21,403 bases of DNA from a virus: the UHGV virus genome UHGV-0175150. One strand, given 5' to 3'. Numbering within the stretch: position 1 is the first letter of the stretch; every line of letters starts with the position of its first letter. The position numbers and the translations under genes were made by a program. Below are positions 6,697-21,236 of this stretch, piece by piece. The notes under the pieces are model-generated. The model saw nothing but the letters and a program-made list of their open reading frames with translations, searched no databases and was not told where the DNA came from.

Positions 6697-7440
6697 TTAA
6701 CTGGCTTTCTTTTTCGGGCGTCCACGTTTTGCCGGTGTCGCACTCCGGGTCTTACGCGTGGCACGGGTGGCCGCTTTGGGTTGCGGCTCCGGCTTCGGTT
6801 TCAGCTCCCGCTCCAGTCGTTCAATCTCTTTTTTGACGCCTGCCTGACAGTCGAGCTGTGTCGCACGTTGCAGGTGCGCCAGCGCCCCTGCGGCATCACC
6901 ACCGTCACGCAGAAACAGACCGGTGATTTTGTGCAGCTTTGCGCGCACTTCATCAGGCATGTCAGCCGTGGCGGTCAGTTCTAGGGTGTCCGTCAGCAGG
7001 CGGGTATCCACAGACTCACCGGCAGCGTGAGCGCGCATGGCCGCGAGTGCCACTTCCTCGGTGAACATGTACGGCGGGGTGCGGCGGTGTTTACCCGGCA
7101 TGGTCAGACCGTACTTCAGGGCATAACGGGCAATCTCCAGCGCACCGGCAATATCGCCGGTATCCAGACGCCACAGCATGACCGTCATCAGAATGTCATC
7201 CTGTGCGCCTTTGCCCTGCTCCAGCACGCCGTTCACCCACGGCAACCAGAACGGCAGCAGTTCGCGCTTTTTCGCGGCCTTCAGCTCTTTTGAATAAATC
7301 GCTTTCAGTGTGCGCTGGTCTGCGGCCAGCTTGACCAGCATCTGCTCATAGACAGTTGCATGTCGCAGCGGGGCGGCTTCCCGCTGCGCGGTCATCGCTG
7401 CCGAGACCCGCATCATGTGGCGCTGTGCGGGACTCGTCAT
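6697..7440 (-). CDS. M: Terminase small (endonuclease) subunit gpM
   Basis: 247-aa ORF, same length as P2 gpM; basic C-terminal tail; follows N. Confidence 0.9.
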   Translation of the reverse strand: MTSPAQRHMMRVSAAMTAQREAAPLRHATVYEQMLVKLAADQRTLKAIYSKELKAAKKRELLPFWLPWVNGVLEQGKGAQDDILMTVMLWRLDTGDIAGALEIARYALKYGLTMPGKHRRTPPYMFTEEVALAAMRAHAAGESVDTRLLTDTLELTATADMPDEVRAKLHKITGLFLRDGGDAAGALAHLQRATQLDCQAGVKKEIERLERELKPKPEPQPKAATRATRKTRSATPAKRGRPKKKAS

Positions 7441-7443
7441 CGG

Positions 7444-8517
7444 TTACGCTCCCGGCTCTGCGGTCGCCTTAGCCGATGTGGAGAAATCACCGACCTTAAT
7501 TTTTTCCACCAGACAACCGGCGGCGTAGTCTTCCACCACGTAATCAATGTTCATTGACTCGTAGTTCTCCACGCGGTCGAGTTTCGGGTTTTCCTCAATC
7601 ACGCGACGATGGCTGTCATCCATGTAGTAGATGGACAGGTTTTCCAGCTTCGTGATGAGCATCGCATCCGCCGGGAAGTACGGGACGCGTACCGCCGGCA
7701 GGTTACCGATGCGTTTCTGGCTGATGATGACGTCAGCGGCCAGCATTTCGCTGTTGTCCTGCTCCTTGTTAACGATGGGGAAATACTTGTCCGCCAGTAA
7801 CTGACGTCCCACTATCACCACAAGGTCAGGGTCTTCCTGATACCACGGCTCAATCAGGTTGTTGGTCGCATCCATCACCAGTGCATCAAGGCTGGCATAA
7901 TCACCGCCCTTACCCACGCGGATGACCTCAGAGGTCGTGTGACCTTCCTCGTCAGTGACCTTGCTCATCACGCGCGCCGGGGCTTCATTGCGGTATTTCT
8001 GCAGCCAGCCGACCGCCACATCCTGCAGCATCGGATTGCTGCTGCGGTCAGAGGTTTCGGCACGCTTCACGCCGTTAAAACCGGCCATGATGAAATCAAG
8101 GGACTGGCGTTTGATAATGGCGTTACGGATACGGAGCTGGAAATCCTGATAACGCGCCCACAGGTCCAGCGTTTTGTAGCGGATATAAAAATCGAAGTTA
8201 ATCTGGTCGCATTCGTACTTGTTTGACGCCAGCTTCGAGAAGTCCTTCGGCTGACGCTCGGTGCCACCGGCGGTGTCGGTGGTGCTGGCGATGGAGCCGG
8301 TGACACCAATACCAATTTTTTCCCCTTTCATTTCGCTGACCGGCACAATGTTGATGCGGGTCAGAAAATCAGAGGACTCCTGCATGGTGTTCATCAGGGT
8401 CTGGGTGACCGACGGTTCAACGGTGAATTTTTTCGACACATCACCGGCGTCGATGCCGTTCAGTTCGGCAACACGGGACAGATAGGCATTAAATTTAAAG
8501 CGGGTTTCCTGGCGCAT
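7444..8517 (-). CDS. N: Major capsid protein gpN
   Basis: 357-aa ORF, same length as the P2 major capsid precursor; synteny O-N-M. Confidence 0.92.
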   Translation of the reverse strand: MRQETRFKFNAYLSRVAELNGIDAGDVSKKFTVEPSVTQTLMNTMQESSDFLTRINIVPVSEMKGEKIGIGVTGSIASTTDTAGGTERQPKDFSKLASNKYECDQINFDFYIRYKTLDLWARYQDFQLRIRNAIIKRQSLDFIMAGFNGVKRAETSDRSSNPMLQDVAVGWLQKYRNEAPARVMSKVTDEEGHTTSEVIRVGKGGDYASLDALVMDATNNLIEPWYQEDPDLVVIVGRQLLADKYFPIVNKEQDNSEMLAADVIISQKRIGNLPAVRVPYFPADAMLITKLENLSIYYMDDSHRRVIEENPKLDRVENYESMNIDYVVEDYAAGCLVEKIKVGDFSTSAKATAEPGA

Positions 8518-9603: not shown

Positions 9604-11376
9604 ATGACCATCACCACAGACACCACTCTTTTACACGACCCGCGTCGTCAGGCGGCGCTGCTGTACTGGCAGGGGTTTTCCGTGCCGCAGATTGCCGCCA
9701 TGTTGCAGATGAAACGCCCGACGGTGCAGAGCTGGAAACAGCGCGACGGCTGGGACAGCGTTGCCCCCATCAGCCGTGTCGAAATGAGCCTGGAAGCGCG
9801 GCTGACCCAGCTCATCATCAAACCGCAGAAAACCGGCGGTGACTTCAAGGAAATTGACCTGCTGGGACGCCAGATTGAACGACTGGCACGGGTAAACCGC
9901 TACAGCCAGACCGGCAACGAGGCAGACCTTAATCCGAACGTCGCTAACCGCAACAAAGGCGGGCGTCGCAAACCGAAAAAGAATTTTTTCAGTGACGAAG
10001 CCATCGAAAAGCTGGAGCAGATTTTCTTTGAGCAGTCTTTCGACTATCAGTTGCACTGGTATCGCGCCGGGCTTGAGCACCGCATCCGCGATATCCTGAA
10101 ATCCCGCCAGATTGGCGCGACGTTTTATTTTTCCCGCGAGGCACTGCTGCGCGCCCTGAAAACCGGCCATAACCAGATTTTTCTGTCGGCCAGTAAAACG
10201 CAGGCGTATGTGTTCCGTGAATACATCATCGCCTTTGCCCGGCTGGTTGACGTTGACCTGACCGGTGACCCGATTGTCCTGGGCAATAACGGCGCAAAAC
10301 TGATTTTTCTCGGCACCAACTCCAACACCGCGCAGAGCCATAACGGCGACCTGTACGTCGATGAGATTTTCTGGATCCCGAATTTTCAGGTACTGCGTAA
10401 GGTGGCATCAGGTATGGCCTCACAGAGTCACCTGCGTTCGACCTATTTCTCCACCCCGTCCACGCTGGCGCACGACGCCTACCCGTTCTGGTCAGGTGAA
10501 CTGTTCAACCGGGGACGCGCCAGCGCCGCCGAACGCGTGGAAATCGACGTCAGTCATAACGCCCTTGCCGGTGGGCTTCTCTGTGCGGACGGCCAGTGGC
10601 GGCAGATTGTCACCATTGAGGACGCCCTGAAAGGTGGCTGCACGCTGTTCGACATTGAGCAGCTCAAACGTGAAAACAGCGCCGACGATTTTAAAAACCT
10701 GTTCATGTGTGAATTTGTTGACGACAAGGCATCGGTGTTCCCGTTCGAGGAGCTGCAACGCTGCATGGTCGACACGCTGGAAGAATGGGAAGACTATGCG
10801 CCGTTTGCCGCAAATCCGTTCGGCTCCCGCCCGGTATGGATTGGTTACGACCCGTCACACCGTGGCGACAGCGCCGGATGCGTGGTGCTGGCACCGCCGG
10901 TGGTGGCCGGTGGCAAATTCAGAATACTTGAGCGTCACCAGTGGAAAGGCATGGACTTTGCCACTCAGGCTGAATCCATCCGCAAACTCACCGAAAAATA
11001 CAACGTCGAATACATCGGTATTGATGCCACCGGCCTCGGTGTCGGCGTGTTCCAGCTCGTGCGCTCGTTCTATCCCGCCGCGCGCGACATCCGCTACACG
11101 CCGGAAATGAAAACCGCAATGGTGCTCAAGGCAAAAGACGTCATCCGCCGTGGCTGTCTGGAATATGACGTCAGCGCCACCGACATCACCAGCTCGTTTA
11201 TGGCTATCCGCAAGACCATGACCAGCAGCGGACGCAGCGCCACCTATGAGGCCAGCCGCAGCGAGGAAGCCAGCCACGCCGACCTCGCCTGGGCGACCAT
11301 GCACGCCCTGTTAAATGAGCCACTCACCGCCGGTATCAGCACCCCGCTGACATCCACCATTCTGGAGTTTTACTGA
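9604..11376 (+). CDS. P: Terminase large (ATPase) subunit gpP
   Basis: ATG at 9604 preceded by GAGG; 590 aa beginning MTITTDTTLLHDPRRQAALLYWQGF..., matching remembered P2 gpP in sequence and length. Confidence 0.92.
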   Translation: MTITTDTTLLHDPRRQAALLYWQGFSVPQIAAMLQMKRPTVQSWKQRDGWDSVAPISRVEMSLEARLTQLIIKPQKTGGDFKEIDLLGRQIERLARVNRYSQTGNEADLNPNVANRNKGGRRKPKKNFFSDEAIEKLEQIFFEQSFDYQLHWYRAGLEHRIRDILKSRQIGATFYFSREALLRALKTGHNQIFLSASKTQAYVFREYIIAFARLVDVDLTGDPIVLGNNGAKLIFLGTNSNTAQSHNGDLYVDEIFWIPNFQVLRKVASGMASQSHLRSTYFSTPSTLAHDAYPFWSGELFNRGRASAAERVEIDVSHNALAGGLLCADGQWRQIVTIEDALKGGCTLFDIEQLKRENSADDFKNLFMCEFVDDKASVFPFEELQRCMVDTLEEWEDYAPFAANPFGSRPVWIGYDPSHRGDSAGCVVLAPPVVAGGKFRILERHQWKGMDFATQAESIRKLTEKYNVEYIGIDATGLGVGVFQLVRSFYPAARDIRYTPEMKTAMVLKAKDVIRRGCLEYDVSATDITSSFMAIRKTMTSSGRSATYEASRSEEASHADLAWATMHALLNEPLTAGISTPLTSTILEFY

Positions 11377-12410
11377 TGAGCAAGAAAAAAGGGAAAACAC
11401 CGCAACCTGCGGCAAAAAAAATGACCGCCAGCGCCCCGAAAATGGAGGCATTCACCTTTGGTGAGCCGGTGCCGGTACTCGACCGCCGTGACATTCTGGA
11501 TTACGTCGAGTGCATCAGTAACGGCAGATGGTATGAGCCGCCGGTCAGCTTTACCGGTCTGGCGAAAAGCCTGCGTGCTGCCGTGCATCACAGCTCGCCG
11601 ATTTACGTCAAACGCAATATTCTGGCCTCGACATTTATCCCGCATCCGTGGCTTTCCCAGCAGGATTTCAGCCGCTTTGTGCTGGATTTTCTGGTGTTCG
11701 GTAATGCGTTTCTGGAAAAGCGTTACAGCACCACCGGTAAGGTCATCAGACTGGAAACCTCACCGGCAAAATATACCCGCCGTGGTGTGGAAGAGGATGT
11801 TTACTGGTGGGTGCCGTCCTTCAACGAACCGACAGCCTTCACGCCCGGTTCCGTGTTTCACCTGCTGGAGCCGGATATTAATCAGGAGCTGTACGGCCTG
11901 CCGGAATATCTCAGCGCCCTTAACTCTGCCTGGCTGAATGAGTCGGCCACGCTGTTCCGCCGCAAGTATTACGAAAACGGCGCACATGCCGGATACATCA
12001 TGTACGTTACCGATGCCGTGCAGGATCGCAACGATATCGAAATGCTTCGCGAAAACATGGTGAAGTCGAAAGGCCGCAACAACTTTAAAAACCTGTTTCT
12101 CTATGCCCCACAGGGGAAAGCCGACGGCATTAAAATTATCCCGCTCAGTGAAGTGGCGACGAAGGACGATTTTTTTAATATCAAAAAAGCCAGCGCCGCT
12201 GACCTGCTGGACGCACACCGCATCCCCTTTCAGTTGATGGGCGGCAAGCCGGAGAACGTCGGGTCGCTGGGTGATATTGAGAAAGTGGCAAAGGTCTTTG
12301 TCCGCAATGAGCTTATCCCGTTACAGGACAGGATTCGGGAAATAAACGGCTGGCTCGGTCAGGAGGTCATCCGCTTTAAAAACTACTCACTGGACACTGA
12401 CAACGGCTGA
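11376..12410 (+). CDS. Q: Portal protein gpQ
   Basis: 344-aa ORF, same length as P2 gpQ; start overlaps the P stop (TGATG). Confidence 0.92.
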   Translation: MSKKKGKTPQPAAKKMTASAPKMEAFTFGEPVPVLDRRDILDYVECISNGRWYEPPVSFTGLAKSLRAAVHHSSPIYVKRNILASTFIPHPWLSQQDFSRFVLDFLVFGNAFLEKRYSTTGKVIRLETSPAKYTRRGVEEDVYWWVPSFNEPTAFTPGSVFHLLEPDINQELYGLPEYLSALNSAWLNESATLFRRKYYENGAHAGYIMYVTDAVQDRNDIEMLRENMVKSKGRNNFKNLFLYAPQGKADGIKIIPLSEVATKDDFFNIKKASAADLLDAHRIPFQLMGGKPENVGSLGDIEKVAKVFVRNELIPLQDRIREINGWLGQEVIRFKNYSLDTDNG

Positions 12411-12415
12411 ACATC

Positions 12416-12437
12416 GCCGCCTGCGGGCGGCCTTTTT
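12416..12437 (+). terminator. Rho-independent terminator after Q
   Basis: GCCGCC-TGCG-GGCGGC perfect 6-bp stem with 4-nt loop, followed by CTTTTTA, 6 nt after the Q stop. Confidence 0.5.
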
Positions 12438-12578
12438 ACACTCTGTCATCACGCCCTCACACGCTCATCACCGCACAAAAAATCCCGCAGACACACCAAC
12501 CCCCAACGGGCAGACTAAACGCCGTCACGACGCGCTCAGACGCTGAAAAAATAAAATCAGCACCACCGCCAGCGCGCA

Positions 12579-12597
12579 GTGCTTTCCCCGCCTCGCC
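12579..12597. other. cos site (19-nt cohesive end of P2-like phages)
   Basis: GTGCTTTCCCCGCCTCGCC is the reverse complement of GGCGAGGCGGGGAAAGCAC, which I recall as the P2 cohesive end; it lies immediately beyond Q, where cos sits in P2. Confidence 0.55.
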
Positions 12598-12720
12598 CGC
12601 CCGCTTCATGGGGCGGTTTTAATGCAGTTGCACGAACACGCCAGAGGCACACCATCACTGGCAGCGATCAAACACAACAGGGGAGGGATGCGCATGCAAT
12701 TTGATGCTTGTTAATGCGTT

Positions 12721-13383
12721 TTAAAAGTCCATCTCTTTACCATGCATTTCCTTATAATTCTTCCGTATTTCCATTTGCTTTTTATAGCTAATTTTCATAA
12801 TTTCCAAAAGCTCTTTAGGCATCCTTAATTTGTATTGTTTCATTGATGTTTTAACCACAAAGAAACCACTACGAAAACTTGGATTACCATTCTCACTTAA
12901 GCTTTTATAGAACCTCATATTTCCCAGCTTTGCAAAAGGATAGAAGGCAAACTCCCATTTCTCTCCTACTTGGTATAAAGAATACGGCATTTCCTTCCCA
13001 TTTGCTTTTAGTTTGTTTATGTTAAAATGATTATTTACCCCACTAACTTCTAAGCAAAACTCTTGTATATGTACCGGAACGTTCCGCAAATTTACAACCT
13101 CAATATTGGCACAATAATTTTCTTTGTCTACGCTAGGGTAAGGCTTATAGGTTAAACTTAATTTTTCAACATTATTTTGTGATGCTTGGTATGTCGCATA
13201 CAATGAAATAATCACTGCGACTGACGTTGCAATTCCTGAGACCCATCCTCCGATCATTGCTAAATAAGCAACAGCATCTTTATGCTCTGGTTTCGCCCAT
13301 TCAGCCTGAATAGAGCCTAACCATAAACCGAAAGCAAACATACAAATACCAACCAATAAAAAAGAAATTATTTTCCAAAGCAT
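12721..13383 (-). CDS. Hypothetical membrane-anchored protein (two N-terminal TM helices plus ~150-aa soluble domain); AT-rich cargo gene
   Basis: 220-aa ORF with ATG at 13381..13383 and GAGG 8 nt upstream; TM1 about residues 4-23, TM2 about 41-62; composition visibly more AT-rich than the flanking phage genes; no recognisable motif. Confidence 0.7.
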   Translation of the reverse strand: MLWKIISFLLVGICMFAFGLWLGSIQAEWAKPEHKDAVAYLAMIGGWVSGIATSVAVIISLYATYQASQNNVEKLSLTYKPYPSVDKENYCANIEVVNLRNVPVHIQEFCLEVSGVNNHFNINKLKANGKEMPYSLYQVGEKWEFAFYPFAKLGNMRFYKSLSENGNPSFRSGFFVVKTSMKQYKLRMPKELLEIMKISYKKQMEIRKNYKEMHGKEMDF

Positions 13384-13408
13384 TTTATCTGCCTCAAATG
13401 ATTTTAAT

Positions 13409-13477
13409 CTAACGCCTCACGATGCTCTTTGTTTAACCCCGCCAGCACTGAAAACAAGTTTCAGTACTGGCGGCGTT
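13409..13477. repeat. Copy A of a ~69-bp repeat containing an imperfect stem-loop (13435..13477)
   Basis: CTAACGCCTC...CGCCAGCACTGAAA-ACAAG-TTTCAGTACTGGCGGCGTT; about 85% identical to copy B at 14382..14450; lies between the two cargo genes. Confidence 0.7.
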
Positions 13478-13491
13478 TGTCACTATATTGT

Positions 13492-14223
13492 TTAATTGTC
13501 GAGTATCGAATCGACCTCACCCGTTCGCACGTTGACGCGCGCCGCTACGGTCTGCTTTACCACTCCACCATAAGCATTAGTGCCGCGAAACGTGGTTTTC
13601 ACAATAGCGTGCGGGTCTTTATTCAAAACCAAATGATATACCGTTGATACATGTTTATAAGATGAATCATCGTTCATATTCTCTTTAATTAGCTTTTCCA
13701 ATGGTCGATAAGAACCATCCCAACCACTAAAATTACTCTGAAATGTATCAAGGTTGATTTTATTGTTTAGTGATTTCGGATCTTTTTCATAATCATTAAA
13801 GCACCACCCAAGAACATCACCGAGTTTCAACTCATCATCTTTGGTAAAAGTATATTCACTCATGCAAGCATAAAATGCATCTGATGCGGTGACTGGCACT
13901 TCCTTAAAATCAATGTAACTATTCACAATATCGTGTCGAGTTTTCTTTGGCTCGTTCCGATATTCCTTGAGTGTTTTTTCACCATATTCGAATGTTTTTT
14001 GGACTTGGTGTTCTGCAACGGTTGATGTTTCAGTTTTAGCAACTGGCTGGCTTTTTTCTGTTGGATAGAGTATTGAACCAATTATGCTCAATACAAAACC
14101 TCCTCCGAGATAAACCGCACTTGCACGTTTGCGGCTTGGCATTCGCACCAGTGATGGTTTGATTAACCCGATGAAAAAAGCAACGAAAAAAGCGAGTGAT
14201 AGAAAAGCGATTACAGTATCCAT
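13492..14223 (-). CDS. Hypothetical membrane-anchored protein (two N-terminal TM helices plus ~190-aa soluble domain); AT-rich cargo gene
   Basis: Start taken at ATG 14221..14223 (MDTVIAFLSLAFFVAFFIGLI...) with AAGGA 5 nt upstream, giving 243 aa; the track ORF begins 8 codons earlier at a GTG. A strongly basic loop (KPSLVRMPSRKRAS) separates the two TM segments. Body is AT-rich but the last ~120 nt are GC-rich. Confidence 0.7.
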   Translation of the reverse strand: MDTVIAFLSLAFFVAFFIGLIKPSLVRMPSRKRASAVYLGGGFVLSIIGSILYPTEKSQPVAKTETSTVAEHQVQKTFEYGEKTLKEYRNEPKKTRHDIVNSYIDFKEVPVTASDAFYACMSEYTFTKDDELKLGDVLGWCFNDYEKDPKSLNNKINLDTFQSNFSGWDGSYRPLEKLIKENMNDDSSYKHVSTVYHLVLNKDPHAIVKTTFRGTNAYGGVVKQTVAARVNVRTGEVDSILDN

Positions 14224-14381
14224 AGCTATCCTTTTTGCATCATCCACATAAAAAATCGACCTTATGTTAGCAACAGGAAGCTTACTTTTGAATATTTGTA
14301 AGTTGTTAGCTTTAGCTCTCCGAGCTAACTCCTTTCAACCGTCAAAAAACAGCACCAACTCAGTAAAAATATGAATGTCAA

Positions 14382-14450
14382 CTAACGCCTCGCTTCGCTC
14401 GTTGTTCAACGCCGCCAGCCCTGAAAACAAGTTTCACGACTGGCGGCGTT
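14382..14450. repeat. Copy B of the ~69-bp stem-loop repeat
   Basis: CTAACGCCTC...AACGCCGCCAG (perfect 11-bp arm) ...ACAAG... CTGGCGGCGTT; ends 3 nt from the stop of the small ORF at 14453. Confidence 0.7.
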
Positions 14451-14452
14451 CT

Positions 14453-14659
14453 CTATCGTCTGCGTGGTGGTGACGTAACTCTGGATTGACCGATATGGTT
14501 AAACCGCCCGTAATTATCCCGGACTATTTCGGCACACCCGACCAGCTCATCGGGCGTCAGATTTTCGTTGACCATAATCCGCTGTAAACGCTGAACAATA
14601 GCCATCAGCTTGATATTTTTAGTTTTATGGTGCGGTATCTCGCCTGGTATTCTGTGCAT
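14453..14659 (-). CDS. Small hypothetical protein (68 aa), translationally coupled to the upstream ASCH/HExxH gene
   Basis: ATG at 14657..14659 shares 1 nt with the TAA stop of the upstream gene; product MHRIPGEIPHHKTKNIKLMAIVQRL...; no recognisable motif; could be a non-coding overlap. Confidence 0.4.
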   Translation of the reverse strand: MHRIPGEIPHHKTKNIKLMAIVQRLQRIMVNENLTPDELVGCAEIVRDNYGRFNHIGQSRVTSPPRRR

Positions 14660-15111
14660 TATCCAAGCCACCCGTTTTGCTGTGCACGCTCCATCTGTTC
14701 ATCTGAATAGTTCCATGCTCCATCCGTGGCAACCATTGCCCCGCCAGACATCCCCGTCTCTGGTTCATACATAACAGCAAGGCCGAGCTGATGCATAATT
14801 TCATGATTAATTCTGAATACCAGGCCACGCTCACTAAGTTCTTTCCAGTTCACAATCTCATATGCACCTGTATTAAACAGCTCAATACTTAGCAAGACAT
14901 AATCTTCCAGCCAGTCTGACAGGTCAGTAACATCTGTTATCCGGGCTTCAACCTTTCGCCCCGTATACACACCCTGCACCCATTCATGCAAAATCAACGT
15001 GTCCCCGCGCTCATAATTACGGTCATTTTTCCGAAACTCTGCGCGTTTTTTTCCTTCCAGAACAAGGTCAAAATATTTTGCGTGCAGCTTTACCTCGTGA
15101 ATTTTTGCCAT
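14659..15111 (-). CDS. ASCH/DUF3850-like domain protein with a C-terminal HExxH (HEIMH) motif; unknown function
   Basis: ATG at 15109..15111 shares 1 nt with the gpA stop; 150 aa. N-terminal MAKIHEVKLHAKYFDLVLEGKKRAEFRKNDRNYERGDTLILHEW has the signature pattern of DUF3850/ASCH-fold proteins (from memory). C-terminal part has FRINHEIMHQLGLAVMYEPE. Confidence 0.75.
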   Translation of the reverse strand: MAKIHEVKLHAKYFDLVLEGKKRAEFRKNDRNYERGDTLILHEWVQGVYTGRKVEARITDVTDLSDWLEDYVLLSIELFNTGAYEIVNWKELSERGLVFRINHEIMHQLGLAVMYEPETGMSGGAMVATDGAWNYSDEQMERAQQNGWLG

Positions 15112-17396
15112 TATGTCCACTCCATTACTGTTGAGAATCCCGGCCACTCATCAGCGACCGGATACGTGAAGTTTTTCCCGTCATAATTTACGGTTGCCCC
15201 ACGCGCCAGCGCCTCAAGCTCCCATCGCTGCGGCCTGATACCGTTCTGAGCAAGGTCAACGCGGATACGGGTAATTTGCATTCGTTCCGACCGGGTCATT
15301 CTGGCCGATGGCGCCATTTCATGCGGTTTTAACGGGCTTCCGGCTCTTTGCTGACGATTTGGTGTTCTCAGGCCGTGTTTTAATGCGCCCCTGAGCGCCC
15401 TCACGACATCCGGGTCATTCCATTCGATAACACCGTCATCAACCAGATTAAGCACTGCTGCGGCGTGCTCAGAAGGTGTGGGAGCCGGTAACGAAGTATC
15501 ACCACCGGTGAGCTTTCCACAGTTATTGACAGGACTCCGAGGCGCGGCGATGCCGCTTTTTAAAGTCAAAGGCTCAACGACAGGAACTTTCGGAACAATG
15601 CGCCAGTCCGTGGTTCTGGTGATATGAATATGACGCGCGCCGAGATGCGGCGCGTAAATGCCGACCACTCTCTCGACTTCTTCCTCATACTCGTTAACGT
15701 CATCCGACGGGCTACGGGCAACCCTGACAGTCTGACAATCGCGCGGGACATTTGCCCCACCCTGCGCGCTGATATACAACGCAAAATCACCACTGTCTGC
15801 GGCGGCGCGTGCAGCCTCGACGCGTTCGTCAAACTCATCAGCAATGCTGACGCCACGAGGCAATTTGCGTAGTTCACGGTAAGCCCCCATTGTCGGCAGA
15901 CCAACCGTTTTAAATTGCGGGATACGCCACGTTGACGCCCATGCGGTAACAGCCGCTGCAGTGTCTTTCAGCGGCCTGCCGGTATCGTTATCGAGCTGAT
16001 CATCCAGTGCATAGCCGTCGATGTTTTTTGAAATGTATTTCGCGATATATCCCGCTGCACCGCCCCGGTTAAGGTGTTTTGCCTGAAAACGGTTTCGCGC
16101 GGCTCCTCTTTCGTCGCCATCCTCTTTGAGCGCATAGCGACGCATGATTTCGATAATCTGGTTACGCTGGCGTGGATTACAAAAAAGCATCATATGCCAG
16201 TGCGGCGTTCCGTCGTGGTGTGGCTCAACAACACGCAAACCATAAGCCTGTAAATCATTATCCTTGAATGCCGTGCGCATCAGGCTCCAGATACGGCAGA
16301 GATAACGCTGCGCATCCTTTGGATTAAATGCCTCATCATTCCAGCCGTGATTAAGCTTGACGGTTTTACTTTCGCCTTTTCCGACCTGACGTGTCGGGTG
16401 ATACTTTGACGGCGCGGTCAGCGTGATAAACATCCCCACATCACCCTCTGCGGCGGCGTAACGCTCAATTCCGGCGATGGTGTTCATCAGCTCCATCCGG
16501 CGAATTTCAGGATTAGAAATACTGCCCATCACCTTACTGATAAGGTCGATGCGTTCGCCGGTTTCCCTGTTTTCAAGGTCACACGATTTAAGAAATTCCA
16601 GATTTGCCTGGCGGCGCGCACGCACATCACGAATGGCATGTTTACTGGCATAAGGAGAACGGTCTTTATTGACCTCCCCGACAGCAATCAGTAACGCCTC
16701 ATGCCAGCGCATACGCTGGCCTTTAAGCTGATGAGTCCACCACTCATCGTTAAACAGACGGGCAATGGCAGAATATGCCTGCCTCGTGGTCATCTGCCCT
16801 TTACGGTATTTTTTCCAGTAGAGCGGGGAAATATTGAAAGCACGTGCAGCGCCAGCAACATGACCATACAGGTGAGCCTGCGCCTCATCCGTAAACAGCG
16901 ATTCTTTCTCGCCATGCGCATCCACCCAGGCATCGCAGAGTTCCTCATACATCATGAAAAGCTGTGATGAGATACGGGCGGCAAACTTTTTCAGCTCCTT
17001 GTCATTCATCCCCGGCAGGCGCGCATACTGGTCGCGCTCTGCCAGAAACAGCAACGACGCGTCGGTGTTCATTTCATGGCGCTGATTCACACGCTCAATG
17101 CGCGGCCATAAACGACGCTGAAAAGTGGATGTGAGGAAATAAAACCCGTGCACCGGGCTTTTATTGCGCCGGATGTAGTCATAGCGTGAAGTAAACAGCG
17201 AGCGCAAAAAATAAGGCAGGCGGTTAATCGTGGATAAAACACCTTGCACCTGACGCATCTCGTCACGTGTAAGAGGTCTTTCGCGCCCGACAGCCTCGCG
17301 TGGCGCGTTCCATGCATAAGCACCGGTAAACGCCTTACCGGTGCCTGCGGTAAATGCTGACGGAGGGACAAAACGCCCGGAGGCTTTAACGGCCAT
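15111..17396 (-). CDS. A: Replication initiation protein gpA (rolling-circle nickase)
   Basis: Start taken at ATG 17394..17396 (MAVKASGRFVPPSAF...) giving 761 aa, the P2 gpA length; the track ORF begins 14 codons upstream at a TTG. Confidence 0.92.
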   Translation of the reverse strand: MAVKASGRFVPPSAFTAGTGKAFTGAYAWNAPREAVGRERPLTRDEMRQVQGVLSTINRLPYFLRSLFTSRYDYIRRNKSPVHGFYFLTSTFQRRLWPRIERVNQRHEMNTDASLLFLAERDQYARLPGMNDKELKKFAARISSQLFMMYEELCDAWVDAHGEKESLFTDEAQAHLYGHVAGAARAFNISPLYWKKYRKGQMTTRQAYSAIARLFNDEWWTHQLKGQRMRWHEALLIAVGEVNKDRSPYASKHAIRDVRARRQANLEFLKSCDLENRETGERIDLISKVMGSISNPEIRRMELMNTIAGIERYAAAEGDVGMFITLTAPSKYHPTRQVGKGESKTVKLNHGWNDEAFNPKDAQRYLCRIWSLMRTAFKDNDLQAYGLRVVEPHHDGTPHWHMMLFCNPRQRNQIIEIMRRYALKEDGDERGAARNRFQAKHLNRGGAAGYIAKYISKNIDGYALDDQLDNDTGRPLKDTAAAVTAWASTWRIPQFKTVGLPTMGAYRELRKLPRGVSIADEFDERVEAARAAADSGDFALYISAQGGANVPRDCQTVRVARSPSDDVNEYEEEVERVVGIYAPHLGARHIHITRTTDWRIVPKVPVVEPLTLKSGIAAPRSPVNNCGKLTGGDTSLPAPTPSEHAAAVLNLVDDGVIEWNDPDVVRALRGALKHGLRTPNRQQRAGSPLKPHEMAPSARMTRSERMQITRIRVDLAQNGIRPQRWELEALARGATVNYDGKNFTYPVADEWPGFSTVMEWT

Positions 17397-17661
17397 GTGA
17401 GCCAAAAGCCTCTGAACAACGCTTGCTGAGTTGCTCAACCTGCGCGTTTAAATCGGCAAAAGATTTTGCGCTTCCGGTCAGAATATCGTGATGCATCAGG
17501 CCGGAAACGAGCTGGCTTAATTTCGGGTAATAACCAACCACCGCCAGCCATTCCTGACCGGCGTTTTTACCGCTTTCCGCTCTCTTTTTCTCGTGGAGAA
17601 TAAACTGAAAGCTGTCACTGGTAACGACATAACGTTCGCCAATTTCAATACGAATGCTCAT
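17386..17661 (-). CDS. Small early protein (P2 orf83-like), hypothetical
   Basis: 91-aa ORF with ATG start, overlapping the A start by 11 nt; position matches the small ORFs between B and A in P2. Confidence 0.6.
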   Translation of the reverse strand: MSIRIEIGERYVVTSDSFQFILHEKKRAESGKNAGQEWLAVVGYYPKLSQLVSGLMHHDILTGSAKSFADLNAQVEQLSKRCSEAFGSHGR

Positions 17662-17882
17662 GCCATTCTCCGGTAATGTTTGTTTTTTGCTTCAAAGACT
17701 GACTGACAGGAAACACAACGCGTGGCTGACGGATAAGCCGCACGACGGGCAGCAGGTATTGGCGCATCACACTCTTCGCAAACCAGCGCAGAAACACCGC
17801 AATGTTTACCCCTTGCCGCGTTAATCTGGCGCTCCAGTAATTCAGCCTGTTGTTCCTGAATAAAATCTACGTTGTCCGGCAT
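17658..17882 (-). CDS. TraR/DksA-family C4 zinc-finger protein (P2 orf82-like)
   Basis: 74-aa ORF with CEEC-x17-CVSC zinc-finger spacing typical of TraR/DksA C4 fingers; ATGA overlap with the downstream gene. Confidence 0.7.
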   Translation of the reverse strand: MPDNVDFIQEQQAELLERQINAARGKHCGVSALVCEECDAPIPAARRAAYPSATRCVSCQSVFEAKNKHYRRMA

Positions 17883-17884
17883 TA

Positions 17885-18172
17885 TCAGTTCCTTTTGTCG
17901 TTCAGTTTCTTAAATTCATCAGCGCAATAGCTGGCAATTTCAGCCATTAATTTTGTCAGTTCATCCACGGAGGAAATTTGCTTGAGAAATACAGCGCGTT
18001 TCACAAGTAAATTGACCACATCAGACAGGAGGTTTAATTTATCCGCATAAATGGCTATAGTTGATTCCACCATATCCCCAGTATTTTTATCGCGTTTAAT
18101 ATCCGCTAGCGACAAATCACCGTTTTTCATAACTGAAATCTTCAGCCAGTTATTAAGCAATATATTTTTCAT
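17885..18172 (-). CDS. Hypothetical protein, AT-rich, no recognisable motif
   Basis: 95-aa ORF with ATG start; ATGA overlap with the upstream gene stop at 18169..18172; composition more AT-rich than neighbouring P2 core genes. Confidence 0.5.
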   Translation of the reverse strand: MKNILLNNWLKISVMKNGDLSLADIKRDKNTGDMVESTIAIYADKLNLLSDVVNLLVKRAVFLKQISSVDELTKLMAEIASYCADEFKKLNDKRN

Positions 18173-18414
18173 TCGCTGTATGCCCTCTCCGCAGAATCAA
18201 TCATTTCCCGGCCATTATTGGTAATACAGAAACCTTCTCTTGATTTGGTCACAAGTCCCCATTTCCCCATTGCTATAAATGCTTTTTCCACACGGCTAGG
18301 CCAGGAGCGGAAGACATCGCTTGAAGGGTGTAGTGGAGTCTTATCATCTAATTTTTTAAGTAATGAAAGTTGATAATCTGTTAAGCGTTTCCTTAACCAT
18401 TTTGTATTTGTCAT
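18169..18414 (-). CDS. Hypothetical protein, AT-rich, no recognisable motif
   Basis: Start taken at ATG 18412..18414 (MTNTKWLRKRL...) with AGGAAAG 6 nt upstream, giving 81 aa; the track ORF starts 2 codons earlier at a TTG. Confidence 0.5.
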   Translation of the reverse strand: MTNTKWLRKRLTDYQLSLLKKLDDKTPLHPSSDVFRSWPSRVEKAFIAMGKWGLVTKSREGFCITNNGREMIDSAERAYSE

Positions 18415-18428
18415 TTCCAACTTTCCTG

Positions 18429-18641
18429 TTATTTATTAAGTCCTAGATTATGGAATTTGGCTGACTCCTGACTGAGCAACTCGACTATCTCCACGCGGGA
18501 TAACTCCGCCTTTGTGATGTGGCGAATCATGGCATCAAGATGAGACGAAAAGCGCGTTGCTGCGTCAGCCTGTGCTTCGGTTCTGGCCTGTTGCAGCATT
18601 AATGCGTATTTACCGCACTGATTTTCAGAAACTGTATGCAT
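18429..18641 (-). CDS. Small hypothetical early protein
   Basis: 70-aa ORF with ATG start and GGAGAAAG upstream; lies between B and the A-proximal small genes. Confidence 0.5.
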
Positions 18642-19438: not shown

Positions 19439-19754
19439 GCCACTCGGTCGGAGCCTCTTCGACTAGTTGTGCCGCATACTTATCCCACTCACGACGATTT
19501 ACCCATAATTCAGCTTTCCCTCTTGGTTTTAATGGGTCTGTCATATAGAAGGCTGGCAGCTTTCCCGCTTTAGCCATTTCAGCCACCGCGCGTGGTGTCT
19601 TACCGATGTAAAGAGCAAACCCCTCTTTCGACAGCAAATCTGATGGGCGCTCTGAAATCTGAATGCTTTTGCGTTTGGCTTCGTTTTCGAAACTTGCCTC
19701 ATCGCTAGTTTGACAAGAAATTTCTACATTTGTCGTCACTTTGCTATCCTCCAT
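19383..19754 (-). CDS. cox: Cox-like excisionase/transcriptional regulator with an N-terminal extension
   Basis: Segment FALYIGKTPRAVAEMAKAGKLPAFYMTDP aligns with the remembered P2 Cox helix-turn-helix region (FAKLIGKSTGAVRRMIDKGKLPVIDMTDP); first gene of the early operon, divergent from C. ORF is 123 aa against 91 aa in P2; start codon uncertain. Confidence 0.65.
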   Translation of the reverse strand: MEDSKVTTNVEISCQTSDEASFENEAKRKSIQISERPSDLLSKEGFALYIGKTPRAVAEMAKAGKLPAFYMTDPLKPRGKAELWVNRREWDKYAAQLVEEAPTEWHDWKNRISYSKSRHGRAA

Positions 19755-19847
19755 AAGATTTGTAATTCACCAACTGGAGCCATCTAGAGCCTTTTTGAGT
19801 GCATCGCAAATTGCCAAGTAGCCATATAATTGGAGATTAGCAAAATT
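19755..19847. promoter_or_regulatory. Immunity switch region between cox and C with overlapping promoter elements
   Basis: Perfect TATAAT at 19825..19830 on the plus strand (candidate Pc -10). On the minus strand a perfect TTGACA (complement of 19850..19855, overlapping the C start codon) lies 17 nt upstream of AATTAT (candidate Pe). Imperfect direct repeats AGTAGCCAT and ATTAGCAAA flank the -10, about 20 bp apart. Confidence 0.45.
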
Positions 19848-20147
19848 ATGTCAAGTGAACAAAGCGAGAAATTAAAGCTCATCCGTGAATCCGAACGCCT
19901 TAAAACTAAGGAAATTGCTGAATTAATTGGAATTAATTACTACACATATCATGGATATGAATCAGGGAAATCAAAAATGCCTATGGAAGCAGGTATGAAG
20001 CTGTTTAAGCATCCACGCTTTCGCAAGTATCGTGACTGGTTCATGTTTGATGAAATAGATCCCGAAGCTGGACAAATAGCCCCAGCTCTCGCACACATTG
20101 GGCAAGACTCAACAACCTTGCACCACTCAGACCAAAAGACTGGCTGA
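19848..20147 (+). CDS. C: Immunity repressor C
   Basis: Start taken at ATG 19848 giving 99 aa, the P2 C length; C-terminal QIAPALAHIGQDSTTLHHSDQKTG matches the remembered P2 C terminus (QIAPALAHFGQ...SGQKTG); the track ORF starts at an upstream TTG. Confidence 0.85.
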   Translation: MSSEQSEKLKLIRESERLKTKEIAELIGINYYTYHGYESGKSKMPMEAGMKLFKHPRFRKYRDWFMFDEIDPEAGQIAPALAHIGQDSTTLHHSDQKTG

Positions 20148-20240
20148 CGATTTATTCAGCATATGTGTGCAGTAAATGTACGAAAGAAAATTGCATTAAT
20201 TTTCAAGTAGTAGAAGTAAACAGCGTCATCGGAGGGCTTT

Positions 20241-21236
20241 ATGTCTATTAAAAAGCTCGATGATGGTCGTTATGAAGTGGACGTCAGGCCGCAGGGTGCA
20301 GATGGAAAACGTATCAGGCGGAAATTTAAAACTAAAGGTGAAGCCCAGGCATTCGAGCGTCATGTCCTGGTTAACTACCACAACAAAGAGTGGTTGGAGA
20401 AGCCGGCCGACCGCCGAACTCTTACAGAGTTGTTAGGCAGATGGTGGATATATCACGGAAAATCACATGAGCGTGGAGATATTGAACGGGGGCGTTTGAC
20501 GACAATAATTGCCAAATTTGCTGAGATGGGAGTGTCCAGGGCGGATCAGCTAACAAAGAAAACGATAACTGATTATCGAGTTGTAATGATGAACGACGGT
20601 CTAAAACCAGCCAGCGTAAATCGGCATCTGGCAATAATGAGCGGGATGTTCACCAAGTTAATTGACGCCGGTGAATATCACTCTCACAACCCGTTCCGTG
20701 AGGTGAAGCGGTTACGTGAAGCTGTTACGGAAATGGCTTTTTTGTCCAGTGAAGAGATTACGCGGCTGTTATCCATGCTTGATGGTGATGAATTAAATGC
20801 GACTCTGGTCTGCCTTTCTACTGGTGGACGCTGGAGTGAAGTGTCTAATTTAAAAGCTGAACACATCATTAACCAGATGGTTACGTTTATGAAAACCAAA
20901 AACGGAAAGCGCAGGACAATTCCCGTTTCGCAGGACTTGATTAAACGGATCAAAACCAAAAATTCTGGCAGGCTTTTTAATGCCAGTTACTACAAAGTGC
21001 GCAACGCTCTCAGGGAAGTAAAACCCGATTTACCTGACGGACAGGCAGTGCATGTTTTGAGGCATACATTTGCCACACATTTTATAATGAATGGAGGTAA
21101 CATAATCACATTGCAGCGCATCCTGGGTCATTCTAACATTCAGCAAACTATGACCTACGCACACTTTGCACCGGATTTCTTACAAGATGCTGTGACTCTT
21201 AACCCGGTGTCAGGAATGTCCATAATGCGTCCATAA
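20241..21236 (+). CDS. int: Tyrosine-type site-specific integrase (P2 Int family)
   Basis: 331-aa ORF with GGAGGG upstream; C-terminal catalytic motifs HVLRHTFATH and LGHSNIQQTMTYAHF with the conserved Tyr; downstream of C as in P2. Confidence 0.9.
   Translation: MSIKKLDDGRYEVDVRPQGADGKRIRRKFKTKGEAQAFERHVLVNYHNKEWLEKPADRRTLTELLGRWWIYHGKSHERGDIERGRLTTIIAKFAEMGVSRADQLTKKTITDYRVVMMNDGLKPASVNRHLAIMSGMFTKLIDAGEYHSHNPFREVKRLREAVTEMAFLSSEEITRLLSMLDGDELNATLVCLSTGGRWSEVSNLKAEHIINQMVTFMKTKNGKRRTIPVSQDLIKRIKTKNSGRLFNASYYKVRNALREVKPDLPDGQAVHVLRHTFATHFIMNGGNIITLQRILGHSNIQQTMTYAHFAPDFLQDAVTLNPVSGMSIMRP

What the first reader, a model, noticed from the sequence alone, without database searches (positions are those of the whole stretch)
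13492..14223. AT-rich 2-TM protein with predicted periplasmic domain and a compositionally distinct GC-rich 3' end
The basic loop KPSLVRMPSRKRAS between the two TM helices predicts, by the positive-inside rule, that the ~190-aa C-terminal domain faces the periplasm, where phage DNA injection could be blocked. The body of the gene (about 13620..14220) is AT-rich, but the last ~40 codons (13492..13610) are GC-rich. This suggests a chimeric gene whose 3' end derives from resident phage sequence, or a recombination junction inside the ORF.
Basis: partly seen in the sequence, partly recalled or inferred. Interest (0 to 1): 0.6.

Follow-up and report, generated by a model that had tools for sequence, protein, structure and literature searches.

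The report
Mosaic phage 186 Orf97-like exclusion gene
This is a P2-type prophage's copy of the long-known phage 186 gene orf97, which encodes a membrane-anchored periplasmic protein that blocks 186 infection when expressed from a plasmid, and its GC-rich end is an ordinary recombination scar where the last 33 codons came from a 186-type copy of the same gene.

Summary
The ORF 13492-14223 (-), 243 aa, has two TM helices, a +5 basic loop and a roughly 190-aa C-terminal region. Its last 40 codons have GC 0.55 and GC3 0.57, against 0.35 and 0.29 in the body.

The gene is a full-length homologue (80.7% aa) of phage 186 Orf97, whose GenBank note reads "expression from plasmid blocks 186 infection". 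It sits in the known variable cargo hotspot of a P2-like prophage, between gpA and the portal gene next to cos. Rousset et al. 2022 list the family as "2 TM" system 12.

The GC-rich tail is not a foreign fusion. The gene body is the AT-rich P2-type allele, 94-100% identical to other P2-like phages. From gene nt 630-642 (window 13582-13594), through the stop codon and an adjacent conserved hairpin to about 13400, the sequence is 186-type. In 14 sampled loci the tail co-segregates with the downstream cargo gene, so the hotspot's variable zone starts inside the ORF.

The C-terminal residues are conserved across the family. Distant homologues carry the same domain behind lipoprotein signals or a Zn-ribbon plus one TM, which supports a periplasmic location.

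The exclusion mechanism is untested. I rate this a known family and ordinary phage mosaicism, of modest interest.

The parts
13492..14223 (-). orf97-like CDS (243 aa), homologue of phage 186 Orf97; first cargo gene of the P2-type hotspot
   Evidence: ORF and RefSeq CDS. PHROG 3403 E = 3.6e-145. tblastn to 186 orf97 gives 80.7% identity over residues 1-243, E = 3e-123. 158 full-length homologues at 53-96% identity.
14161..14220 (-). TM helix 1 (residues 2-21)
   Evidence: AF2 helix 2-21; hydrophobic and conserved in alignment A1.
14119..14160 (-). Basic loop KPSLVRMPSRKRAS (residues 22-35), predicted cytoplasmic
   Evidence: Five K/R. P23, V26, M28 and R31 are invariant in 40 homologues. The cytoplasmic assignment by the positive-inside rule is inference.
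14068..14133 (-). TM helix 2 (residues 31-52)
   Evidence: AF2 helix 31-52.
13495..13992 (-). Folded C-terminal domain (residues 78-243): helical subdomain plus a 4-stranded sheet, predicted periplasmic. Invariant Cys120 (13864-13866) and Cys141 (13801-13803).
13582..13594 (-). Recombination breakpoint interval inside the ORF (gene nt 630-642, codons about 211-214)
   Evidence: Of the informative sites at or before gene nt 630, all but one (an upstream site) are P2-type; from nt 676 on, most sites (19 of 25) are 186-type. P2-type alleles begin to differ from the window at nt 633/642.
13400..13593 (-). 186-type (Eganvirus-type) patch: last 33 codons, stop codon and the D1 hairpin element. This is the GC-rich 3' end.
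   Evidence: Tail identity is 93-96% to 186-type alleles and 73-78% to 9W, P24A7b and IHE3034. Body identity is the reverse, 73-75% against 94-98%. dS against P2-type alleles is 0.10-0.18 in the body and 0.9-1.8 in the tail for most of them (0.40 for strain 50579417; 0.04 for bR_120, which carries the same tail). Homology with 186-likes ends at GAGGCGTTAG, about 13404.
13398..13477 (-). D1 copy 1: conserved hairpin (13435-13477) plus about 35 nt ending GAGGCGTTAG, directly after the orf97 stop
   Evidence: Direct repeat, 83% identical to copy 2. RNA fold -32.4 kcal/mol, z = -4.85.
14371..14450 (-). D1 copy 2: the same element after orf92. Its 3' end marks the left border of the variable hotspot in P2-like phages.
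   Evidence: Fold -38.8 kcal/mol, z = -5.54. Homology of P2, Wphi and YpM_50 to the window stops at 14380-14381. Across 105 viral contigs conservation is at least 90% up to GAGGCGTTAG and 30-50% from the next base.
12721..13383 (-). Downstream cargo gene (220 aa): TM hairpin, beta-sandwich and C-terminal helix. It travels with the orf97 tail.
14453..14659 (-). orf92-like small CDS of the conserved P2 backbone, upstream of D1 copy 2
   Evidence: RefSeq CDS. PHROG 11386. Annotated gp92 in Wphi.

Best explanation
The window is a P2-like (Peduovirus) prophage of E. coli. [quoted passage not shown] It encodes a homologue of phage 186 Orf97.

Predicted protein: an inner-membrane protein with an N-out / C-out two-helix anchor, a conserved basic cytoplasmic loop, a flexible linker, and a folded periplasmic domain of about 165 aa that probably carries a Cys120-Cys141 disulfide.

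Predicted function: by homology with 186 Orf97 it most likely protects the cell against infection by related phages. It would act at the envelope, most plausibly on genome entry after adsorption.

Origin of the GC-rich 3' end: it is a homologous-recombination scar.
- The body of the gene is the AT-rich allele that circulates in P2-like phages.
- From codon about 211 onward, through the stop codon and the adjacent conserved hairpin element, the sequence is the GC-richer allele of 186-like (Eganvirus) prophages.
- That 186-type segment arrived together with the downstream 220-aa gene.
- The crossover lies in the most conserved coding stretch, so the protein is unchanged; the tail residues are identical to those of 186 Orf97.

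Status of each step.
- Shown: homology, genomic location, the mosaic and its breakpoint, co-segregation of tail and downstream gene, conservation of the C-terminus, and the extracytoplasmic architectures of distant homologues.
- Inferred: topology, disulfide, exclusion function and its step of action, and the direction of transfer.
For: Identity and context.
- P2-type backbone: portal, gpA and DUF3850 genes, with megablast hits to Peduovirus genomes.
- The window is 100% identical to the E. coli SCAID URN1-2021 chromosome.
Identity to it is 80.7% over the full length.
- Rousset et al. 2022 (PMC9122126), Table S5B, list a P2-type allele as system 12, '2 TM', 210 occurrences.

Mosaic.
- 60-nt identity profiles switch from P2-type to 186-type near the 3' end. 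Informative sites and the alignment place the switch at nt 630-642.
- Body identity among the P2-type alleles is 94-100%. Tail identity between alleles with different downstream genes is 71-89%, but 98-100% where the downstream gene is the same. The window's tail is 96% identical to that of 186-like prophages EC23-1020 and A15, which carry orf97-D1-220aa.
- dS jumps about tenfold at the junction against most P2-type alleles, with dN/dS about 0.05-0.1.
- GC3 is uniform in the parental types (0.27-0.38 P2-type; 0.45-0.55 186-type) and stepped only in the window and bR_120.

Topology.
- Invariant loop and Cys residues.
- An Oxalobacter homologue has a lipobox; a Vibrio homologue has three TMs.
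- Of 60 diverse representatives, 10 have a lipobox, 9 have a Zn-ribbon plus one TM, and 54 keep the Cys pair.
Against: Function and mechanism.
- No experiment on this allele exists. The only functional datum is a one-line GenBank note for 186 orf97; the primary paper (Brumby et al. 1996) could not be read here.
- The gene matches no model in PADLOC, Pfam or NCBIfam. It was not among the systems Rousset et al. tested.

Structure.
- Topology rests on rules and comparative architecture, not on a dedicated predictor or on fusions.

Recombination history.
- No exact donor of the tail was found. The best match is 96%, and that donor's downstream gene is only 72% identical in protein.
- The history therefore involved more than one event, and the direction of transfer is inferred.

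Expression.
- Expression in the lysogen is unknown.
- The promoter scan was not above background (11 found against 6.4 +/- 2.5 expected).
Confidence: 0.75

Rival explanations
1. The GC-rich tail reflects only amino-acid composition or chance. The last beta-strands are rich in Gly, Ala, Arg and Val, whose codons are GC-rich, and no recombination is involved.
For: GC1 and GC2 are also higher in the tail (0.625 and 0.45, against 0.46 and 0.30). Re-coding the tail's amino acids with AT-rich codon usage still raises GC from 0.35 to 0.44. All alleles, including the uniform ones, have a somewhat GC-richer tail.
Against: GC3 doubles (0.29 to 0.57, Fisher p = 0.0017). None of 5,000 re-codings reached the observed 0.55. 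Sister alleles that encode nearly the same residues have tail GC3 of 0.27-0.38. Nucleotide identity and dS switch partners at the same point.
Confidence: 0.05
2. The gene is a true chimera. A non-homologous piece of resident phage DNA replaced the original 3' end and gave the protein a new C-terminus.
For: The tail's GC (0.55) resembles the phage backbone (0.52-0.60). A junction does exist inside the ORF.
Against: The last 40 residues are conserved in homologues down to 53% identity. Down to about 42-43% identity, the Vibrio and Oxalobacter homologues keep them too. The residues are identical to those of 186 Orf97. In the AF2 model they form the last strands of the domain's beta-sheet with high confidence.
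Confidence: 0.02
3. The GC-rich segment is kept by selection for an embedded element, such as a promoter or leader for the downstream gene or an extension of the D1 RNA structure, rather than reflecting its ancestry.
For: A promoter-like site (TCGATA-16-TATAGT) lies at 13509-13482 on the gene strand. A strongly folding conserved hairpin starts 15 nt after the stop.
Against: Alleles with AT-rich tails and entirely different downstream hairpins exist in otherwise near-identical genes (9W, P24A7b, IHE3034, STEC2017). The promoter scan is not above background. The TATAGT box is deleted in 186 itself. No Rfam family matches.
Confidence: 0.08
4. The protein is not an entry blocker. Alternatives: it acts as an abortive-infection membrane effector or toxin; it serves the phage's own cycle (lysis timing, or release or induction as part of the 186 SOS operon); or it works only together with the 220-aa neighbour.
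For: In 186 the gene is co-transcribed with the antirepressor tum from the LexA-controlled p95 promoter. Transmembrane proteins in known defence systems are often suicide effectors (Rousset et al.). In the phage collection the 220-aa family is found only beside orf97.
Against: Orf97 alone blocks 186 infection from a plasmid, according to the GenBank note. Many phages carry orf97 without the partner (186, Yersinia Eganviruses, EtG, VHML). The bulk of the protein is a folded extracytoplasmic domain that also occurs as a lipoprotein, which suits binding at the envelope better than pore formation.
Confidence: 0.25

Closest known systems
Phage 186 Orf97 (AAC34191.1; U32222 29604-30335)
   Same: Full-length homologue: 80.7% aa identity, 243 aa. 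Same two-TM anchor, loop and C-terminal domain. The last 33 residues are identical. It lies between the replication gene and cos and is followed by the same D1 hairpin element.
   Different: In 186 it is the distal gene of the LexA-controlled tum (p95) operon, between terminators t95a and t95b. Here there is no tum, and the gene follows orf91/orf92 and a D1 copy in a P2-type backbone. The first 210 codons are a distinct AT-rich allele (about 74% nt identity, GC3 0.29 against 0.47). A 220-aa membrane protein gene follows, where 186 has cos.
P2-hotspot 'system 12, 2 TM' of Rousset et al. 2022 (PMC9122126, Table S5B)
   Same: Same protein family and the same locus between gpA and gpQ in E. coli P2-like prophages. 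It is listed with 210 occurrences and flagged '2 TM'.
   Different: The listed representative has yet another tail variant (…GGMVKQTVAARVDVRTGEIDSILDN). It was catalogued but not among the systems tested.
P2 tin/old and other validated cargo of the same hotspot
   Same: Same AT-rich, cos-proximal variable locus in which P2-like phages carry anti-phage genes.
   Different: Unrelated proteins. No PADLOC model matches. From my own knowledge, Old and Tin are cytoplasmic, whereas this protein is an envelope protein.
Envelope superinfection-exclusion proteins (T4 Imm and Sp, HK97 gp15, P22 SieA, T5 Llp, Cor lipoproteins); named from my own knowledge, not tested here
   Same: Small prophage- or phage-encoded inner-membrane or lipoprotein factors exposed to the periplasm that stop incoming phage genomes or mask receptors. 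Orf97's predicted topology and the lipoprotein versions of its domain fit that pattern.
   Different: No sequence or significant fold similarity was found to any characterised exclusion protein. The target and the step blocked are unknown.
HdeA/HdeB periplasmic chaperone fold

Membership tests
Phage 186 Orf97 family (PHROG 3403) | Significant full-length sequence similarity to 186 Orf97 | tested here: met
   PHROG 3403 E = 3.6e-145 over the whole profile. tblastn to U32222 orf97 gives 80.7% identity over residues 1-243, E = 3e-123.
Phage 186 Orf97 family (PHROG 3403) | Architecture: N-terminal TM hairpin with the conserved KPxxVxMPxR loop, then a C-terminal domain with two invariant Cys and the WDGSYRPLE and TFRGTNAYGG motifs | tested here: met
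   Alignment of 40 homologues; the invariant columns include P23, V26, M28, R31, C120, C141, W168, Y172, R173, P174, G214 and N216.
Phage 186 Orf97 family (PHROG 3403) | Expression blocks infection by phage 186 | not testable with these tools
   Known only from the GenBank note on 186 orf97. No data exist for this allele.
Cargo of the P2-like cos-proximal hotspot (tin/old locus; Rousset et al. 2022) | Located between replication gene A (with orf91/92) and portal gene Q, next to cos | tested here: met
   gpA 15111-17438, DUF3850 14659-15111, orf92 14453-14659, the target gene, the 220-aa gene, and portal 11376-12410.
Cargo of the P2-like cos-proximal hotspot (tin/old locus; Rousset et al. 2022) | Content varies between otherwise near-identical phages, and composition differs from the backbone | tested here: met
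   P2, Wphi and YpM_50 lose homology at 14380-14381. GC is 0.34-0.40 across 12751-14250, against 0.52-0.62 in the structural genes. Seven different downstream genes were seen in 11 loci.
Known anti-phage defence systems (PADLOC-DB v2) | Match to a model of a described defence protein | tested here: not met
   No family at E <= 1 for the target. The neighbour has only a non-significant KwaA hit, E = 0.097.
Envelope superinfection-exclusion proteins (functional class) | Inner-membrane or periplasmic location of the active domain | tested here: inconclusive
   Predicted, not measured: the +5 loop, the Cys pair, and lipoprotein or Zn-ribbon-plus-one-TM versions of the domain in distant homologues. 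No topology predictor or fusion data were available.
Envelope superinfection-exclusion proteins (functional class) | Adsorption is normal but the phage genome does not reach the cytoplasm; no cell death | not testable with these tools
   Requires adsorption, DNA-entry and survival assays.
Integron-like cassette array (attC-type hairpins between cassettes); considered for the D1 repeats | A hairpin recombination site recurs after each cassette | tested here: not met
   D1 is single-copy in 118 of 120 viral contigs. Only L073 (the same arrangement as the window) and L105 have two copies.

The most novel reading that the evidence does not exclude
Orf97 and the hypervariable 2-TM / beta-sandwich protein encoded just downstream form a two-protein envelope exclusion system. 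In this reading the last roughly 30 residues of Orf97 are matched to the partner. The intragenic junction would then be a functional module boundary, used together with the conserved D1 hairpin to swap specificity modules between P2-like and 186-like phages, rather than a neutral scar.
Probability: 0.12. Interest if true: 0.55.

Novelty: new member of a known kind. Interest (0 to 1): 0.3.

Why it matters
The gene family has been known since the 186 genome was annotated, and it is the twelfth most common cargo of the E. coli P2 hotspot. Its mechanism has never been worked out and it is absent from Pfam, NCBIfam and PADLOC.

This analysis gives three concrete handles.

1. A well-supported periplasmic topology with a probable disulfide. 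The domain occurs in at least 2,841 sequence clusters, often as a lipoprotein.
2. A nucleotide-level example of how cargo is exchanged between Peduovirus and Eganvirus lineages: crossover inside a shared cargo gene on one side.
3. A conserved hairpin element whose 3' end marks the hotspot border to the base.

None of this is surprising to a phage geneticist. It explains the compositional oddity fully and lowers its priority.

Tried and rejected
Searches that returned nothing useful for the target:
- Pfam, NCBIfam and PADLOC gave no hit.
- A PDB sequence profile search gave nothing significant.
- Foldseek against PDB gave nothing below E = 0.1.
- Rfam gave nothing in 12300-15300.

Ideas considered and rejected:
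- The promoter and terminator scan was not above shuffled background, and the D1 hairpin lacks a U-tract, so it is not a canonical intrinsic terminator. In 186 the mapped terminator t95b lies about 100 nt further downstream.
- D1 as an integron attC-like cassette separator. It is single-copy in almost all contigs, and no integron integrase is present.
- Tail GC explained by amino-acid composition alone.
- A domain-fusion chimera.
- KwaA (Kiwa) membership of the neighbour gene; the hit is E = 0.097 and not significant.
- A second stem in D1 (AACG…CGTT). The predicted stem has almost no covariation, and its 3' half, GCGAGGCGTTAG, is nearly invariant, so sequence rather than structure may be what is conserved.

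Literature:
- Brumby et al. 1996 and Odegrip et al. 2006 are not held in the library.
- The only text found that mentions orf97 is Owen et al. 2017 (PMC5322425), which merely notes the homologue in Salmonella prophage BTP5. The BTP5 transcriptome paper says nothing about orf97.

No exact donor of the tail was found; the best match is 96%.
Full report
**1. What is at the coordinates**

The minus strand of 13492-14223 carries a 243-codon ORF with an ATG start preceded by AAGGA. A longer GTG start at 14247 exists but is not used by relatives. PHROG 3403 aligns to residues 9-251 of the long form, nearly all of the homologues begin at MDT, and RefSeq annotates 13492-14223.

The protein has two hydrophobic helices (residues 2-21 and 31-52) separated by KPSLVRMPSRKRAS. 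A linker that AlphaFold2 cannot place covers residues 56-74. A confidently folded domain covers residues 78-243, made of a helical bundle followed by a four-stranded sheet (model pLDDT 83.5).

**2. The compositional step is real**

- In 120-nt windows, GC is about 0.50 over 13440-13640 and 0.30-0.40 further into the gene.
- The last 40 codons have GC 0.55 and GC3 0.575. Codons 59-203 have GC 0.35 and GC3 0.29.
- GC3 in the tail against the rest gives Fisher p = 0.0017. A change-point scan puts the best split after codon 222, with permutation p of about 0.007.
- Re-coding the tail's own amino acids with the codon usage of the AT-rich body and neighbour gives GC 0.444 +/- 0.024. None of 5,000 re-codings reached 0.55.

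About half of the rise is therefore due to a Gly/Ala/Arg/Val-rich sequence, and half lies at synonymous sites.

**3. Genomic setting**

The window is a P2-like prophage. The order is portal Q (11376-12410, +), a cos-proximal spacer, two AT-rich genes on the minus strand (12721-13383 and the target), a small orf92-like gene, a DUF3850/ASCH orf91-like gene, and replication gene A (15111-17438). It is 100% identical to the chromosome of E. coli SCAID URN1-2021.

The interval between gpA and gpQ is the described hotspot of variable, often antiviral, cargo in P2-like phages; it is the tin/old locus of P2 itself (Rousset et al. 2022, PMC9122126). P2, Wphi and Yersinia phage YpM_50 are collinear with the window down to 14380-14381 and unrelated beyond.

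**4. Identity of the gene**

The best-annotated relative is orf97 of coliphage 186. Identity is 80.7% over all 243 residues, E = 3e-123. The GenBank record (U32222) notes "expression from plasmid blocks 186 infection". It places the gene after the antirepressor tum in the LexA-controlled p95 operon, between terminators t95a and t95b. Yersinia Eganvirus records repeat that note.

The family has 158 close members across Enterobacterales, nearly all about 243 aa. It is present in 88 of 5,426 complete E. coli genomes. It appears in Table S5B of Rousset et al. as system 12, "2 TM", with 210 occurrences, and was not among the systems they tested. It has no Pfam, NCBIfam or PADLOC model.

**5. The tail is homologous, not foreign**

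In an alignment of 40 homologues (53-96% identity), the last 40 residues (DPHAIVKTTFRGTNAYGGVVKQTVAARVxVRTGEV…) are well conserved. In the model they form the last strands of the sheet. The window's last 33 residues are identical to those of 186 Orf97. This rules out a fusion to unrelated sequence.

**6. The gene is a mosaic of two alleles**

Two allele types exist.
- A P2-type allele, found in Peduovirus 9W, P24A7b, S164, P22H4 and most E. coli prophages. GC3 is about 0.29-0.32 in the body and mostly 0.27-0.38 in the tail.
- A 186-type allele, found in 186, Yersinia and Salmonella Eganviruses, and Kluyvera, Citrobacter and Erwinia prophages. GC3 is about 0.41-0.55 throughout.

The window matches the P2-type allele over the body and the 186-type allele over the tail.
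- Nt 1-630: 95-98% identical to P2-type alleles, 73-75% to 186-type.
- Nt 631-729: 73-78% identical to 9W, P24A7b and IHE3034, 93-96% to 186-type.
- Of 209 sites that discriminate the two types, all but one of those at or before gene nt 630 are P2-type. From nt 676 on, most sites (19 of 25) are 186-type.
- The alignment shows P2-type alleles starting to differ at nt 633/642. The crossover therefore lies in gene nt 630-642, window 13582-13594.
- Synonymous divergence tells the same story. Against most P2-type alleles, dS is 0.10-0.18 in the body and 0.9-1.8 in the tail (dN/dS about 0.05-0.1); it is 0.40 against strain 50579417. Against 186-type alleles the body is saturated and the tail has dS 0.17-0.33 with dN = 0.

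The 186-type stretch continues past the stop codon, through a hairpin element, to GAGGCGTTAG at about 13404. Immediately after that come the ribosome-binding site and start of the 220-aa gene.

**7. The tail travels with the downstream gene**

I compared 14 loci (phages plus sampled E. coli prophages).
- P2-type alleles have almost identical bodies. 9W and IHE3034 are 100% identical over the body.
- Tails are as divergent as 71-89% whenever the downstream gene differs. They are 98-100% identical when it is the same (window and bR_120; P24A7b and Esc30).
- The window's tail is 96% identical to that of two 186-like prophages, E. coli EC23-1020 and A15. Their order is A, tum/DinI, orf97, hairpin, 220-aa gene, cos, portal.
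- High similarity to those prophages spans 13181-13600 (90-97%) and then decays inside the 220-aa gene to 50-78%.

The simplest reading is this. P2-like and 186-like phages that both carry orf97 exchange the cos-proximal cargo by homologous recombination, with the left crossover inside the conserved 3' part of orf97. In these phages the variable zone of the hotspot therefore begins about 100 nt before the stop codon.

The GC step in the window exists because the incoming segment came from the GC-richer 186-type lineage. No exact donor was found, and the downstream gene is itself mosaic, so more than one event is involved.

**8. Topology**

- The loop between the helices carries five K/R residues and is strongly conserved (invariant P23, V26, M28, R31). 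The N-terminus is only two residues long, and one of them is Asp.
- Two Cys residues are invariant (C120, C141). They sit 7 residues from either side of the turn between two consecutive helices of the model (111-127 and 134-147), a geometry suited to a disulfide. This is inferred from secondary structure only.
- A profile search of 1.84 billion cluster representatives finds 2,841 clusters at E <= 1e-3 and 1,285 at E <= 1e-10.
- Of 60 diverse representatives inspected:
  - 10 have a lipoprotein-type signal with a lipobox.
  - 9 have a cytoplasmic Zn-ribbon followed by one TM.
  - 23 have a single TM.
  - 14 have the two-TM hairpin.
  - 2 have three TMs.
  - 54 keep the Cys pair.
- Pfam recognises the Zn-ribbon and bacterial PH N-terminal domains of some of these proteins, but not the shared C-terminal domain.
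- Specific examples are an Oxalobacter lipoprotein version (L022 3938-4522) and a Vibrio three-TM version next to an S24 repressor gene (L023 3731-4498).

Lipoprotein and Zn-ribbon-plus-one-TM architectures place the domain outside the cytoplasm.

**9. Likely mechanism**

Shown: a homologue blocks 186 infection when expressed alone, according to the GenBank note.

Inferred: an inner-membrane-tethered periplasmic domain acts on the incoming phage at the envelope. The most plausible step is genome entry after adsorption, as in other envelope exclusion proteins (my own knowledge; not tested).

Alternatives are an abortive-infection effector, a role in the phage's own induction or lysis programme, or dependence on the neighbour. 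None can be excluded without experiments.

**10. The hairpin element (D1)**

An 80-nt direct repeat flanks the gene, at 13398-13477 and 14371-14450 (83% identity). Each copy has a 16-19-bp stem, with fold energies of -32 and -39 kcal/mol and z-scores of -4.9 and -5.5. The stem is followed by about 35 nt ending in GAGGCGTTAG.

- In P2-like phages the element follows orf92. In 186-like phages it follows orf97. The window has both because of the recombination described above.
- The element occurs in at least 120 viral contigs and is single-copy in all but two, so it is not an attC-like cassette separator.
- Across 105 copies, conservation is at least 90% up to GAGGCGTTAG and falls to 30-50% at the very next base. 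There are 36 different downstream sequences against 16 upstream ones.
- Variation in the left arm keeps pairing mostly through G·U wobble in the gene-sense orientation, which suggests an RNA-level hairpin. The caveat is that the right arm was fixed by the search pattern.
- It lacks a U-tract, has no Rfam family, and is not the mapped 186 terminator t95b.
- Why the border is sharp to the nucleotide is not explained.

**11. The neighbour gene**

**12. Verdict**

The gene is a known family in a known hotspot. The GC-rich end is a homologous-recombination junction between two alleles of the same gene. The protein is intact and conserved. The periplasmic prediction is supported, and the exclusion mechanism remains untested.

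Novelty: a new (mosaic) member of a known kind. Interest: modest.

Noticed in passing
[not shown]
   Followed up: partly
window 13398-13477 and 14371-14450: An 80-nt direct repeat (hairpin plus about 35 nt ending GAGGCGTTAG) flanks orf97. The element is conserved in at least 120 viral contigs. Its 3' end is a nucleotide-sharp border: at least 90% conservation up to GAGGCGTTAG, then 30-50%. There are 36 different downstream sequences. Left-arm changes keep pairing through G·U wobble, which suggests an RNA hairpin in the gene-sense strand. It has no Rfam family and no U-tract.
   Followed up: partly
L073 (IMGVR_UViG_3300010259_000013) 6752-7743; L105 3275-3689: These are the only two of 120 viral contigs with two D1 copies. 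L073 has the same 973-nt spacing as the window, so presumably the same orf97-flanked arrangement. L105 has a 405-nt spacing that I did not examine.
   Followed up: no
proteins P0143-P0291; L022 3938-4522; L023 3731-4498; VHML ORF47 (L033 2947-3675): The Orf97 C-terminal domain is widespread, with 2,841 clusters at 50% identity. It sits behind lipoprotein signals, Zn-ribbon plus one TM, bacterial PH plus one TM, or one to three TM anchors, yet has no Pfam model. The Vibrio copy lies beside an S24 repressor gene and the VHML copy beside an antirepressor gene.
   Followed up: partly
window 12760-13600 compared with L025 and L006: The neighbour gene is itself mosaic. Its first roughly 200 nt, together with D1 and the orf97 tail (13181-13600), are 90-97% identical to the 186-like prophage of E. 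coli EC23-1020. The part encoding its C-terminal domain is only 50-78% identical to any relative found.
   Followed up: partly
L006 5116-6344 (E. coli bR_120_Kylling): An IS3-family element is inserted between orf92/D1 and orf97 in the one other genome that carries the same mosaic tail.
   Followed up: no
window 13429-13647 (+): A 72-codon antisense ORF spans D1 and the GC-rich tail. It is probably a by-product of the GC-rich patch and was not checked for conservation.
   Followed up: no
window 17500-18500 and 19500-20250: Two further stretches have lower GC (0.39-0.41) inside the early and regulatory part of the prophage. I did not examine them.
   Followed up: no
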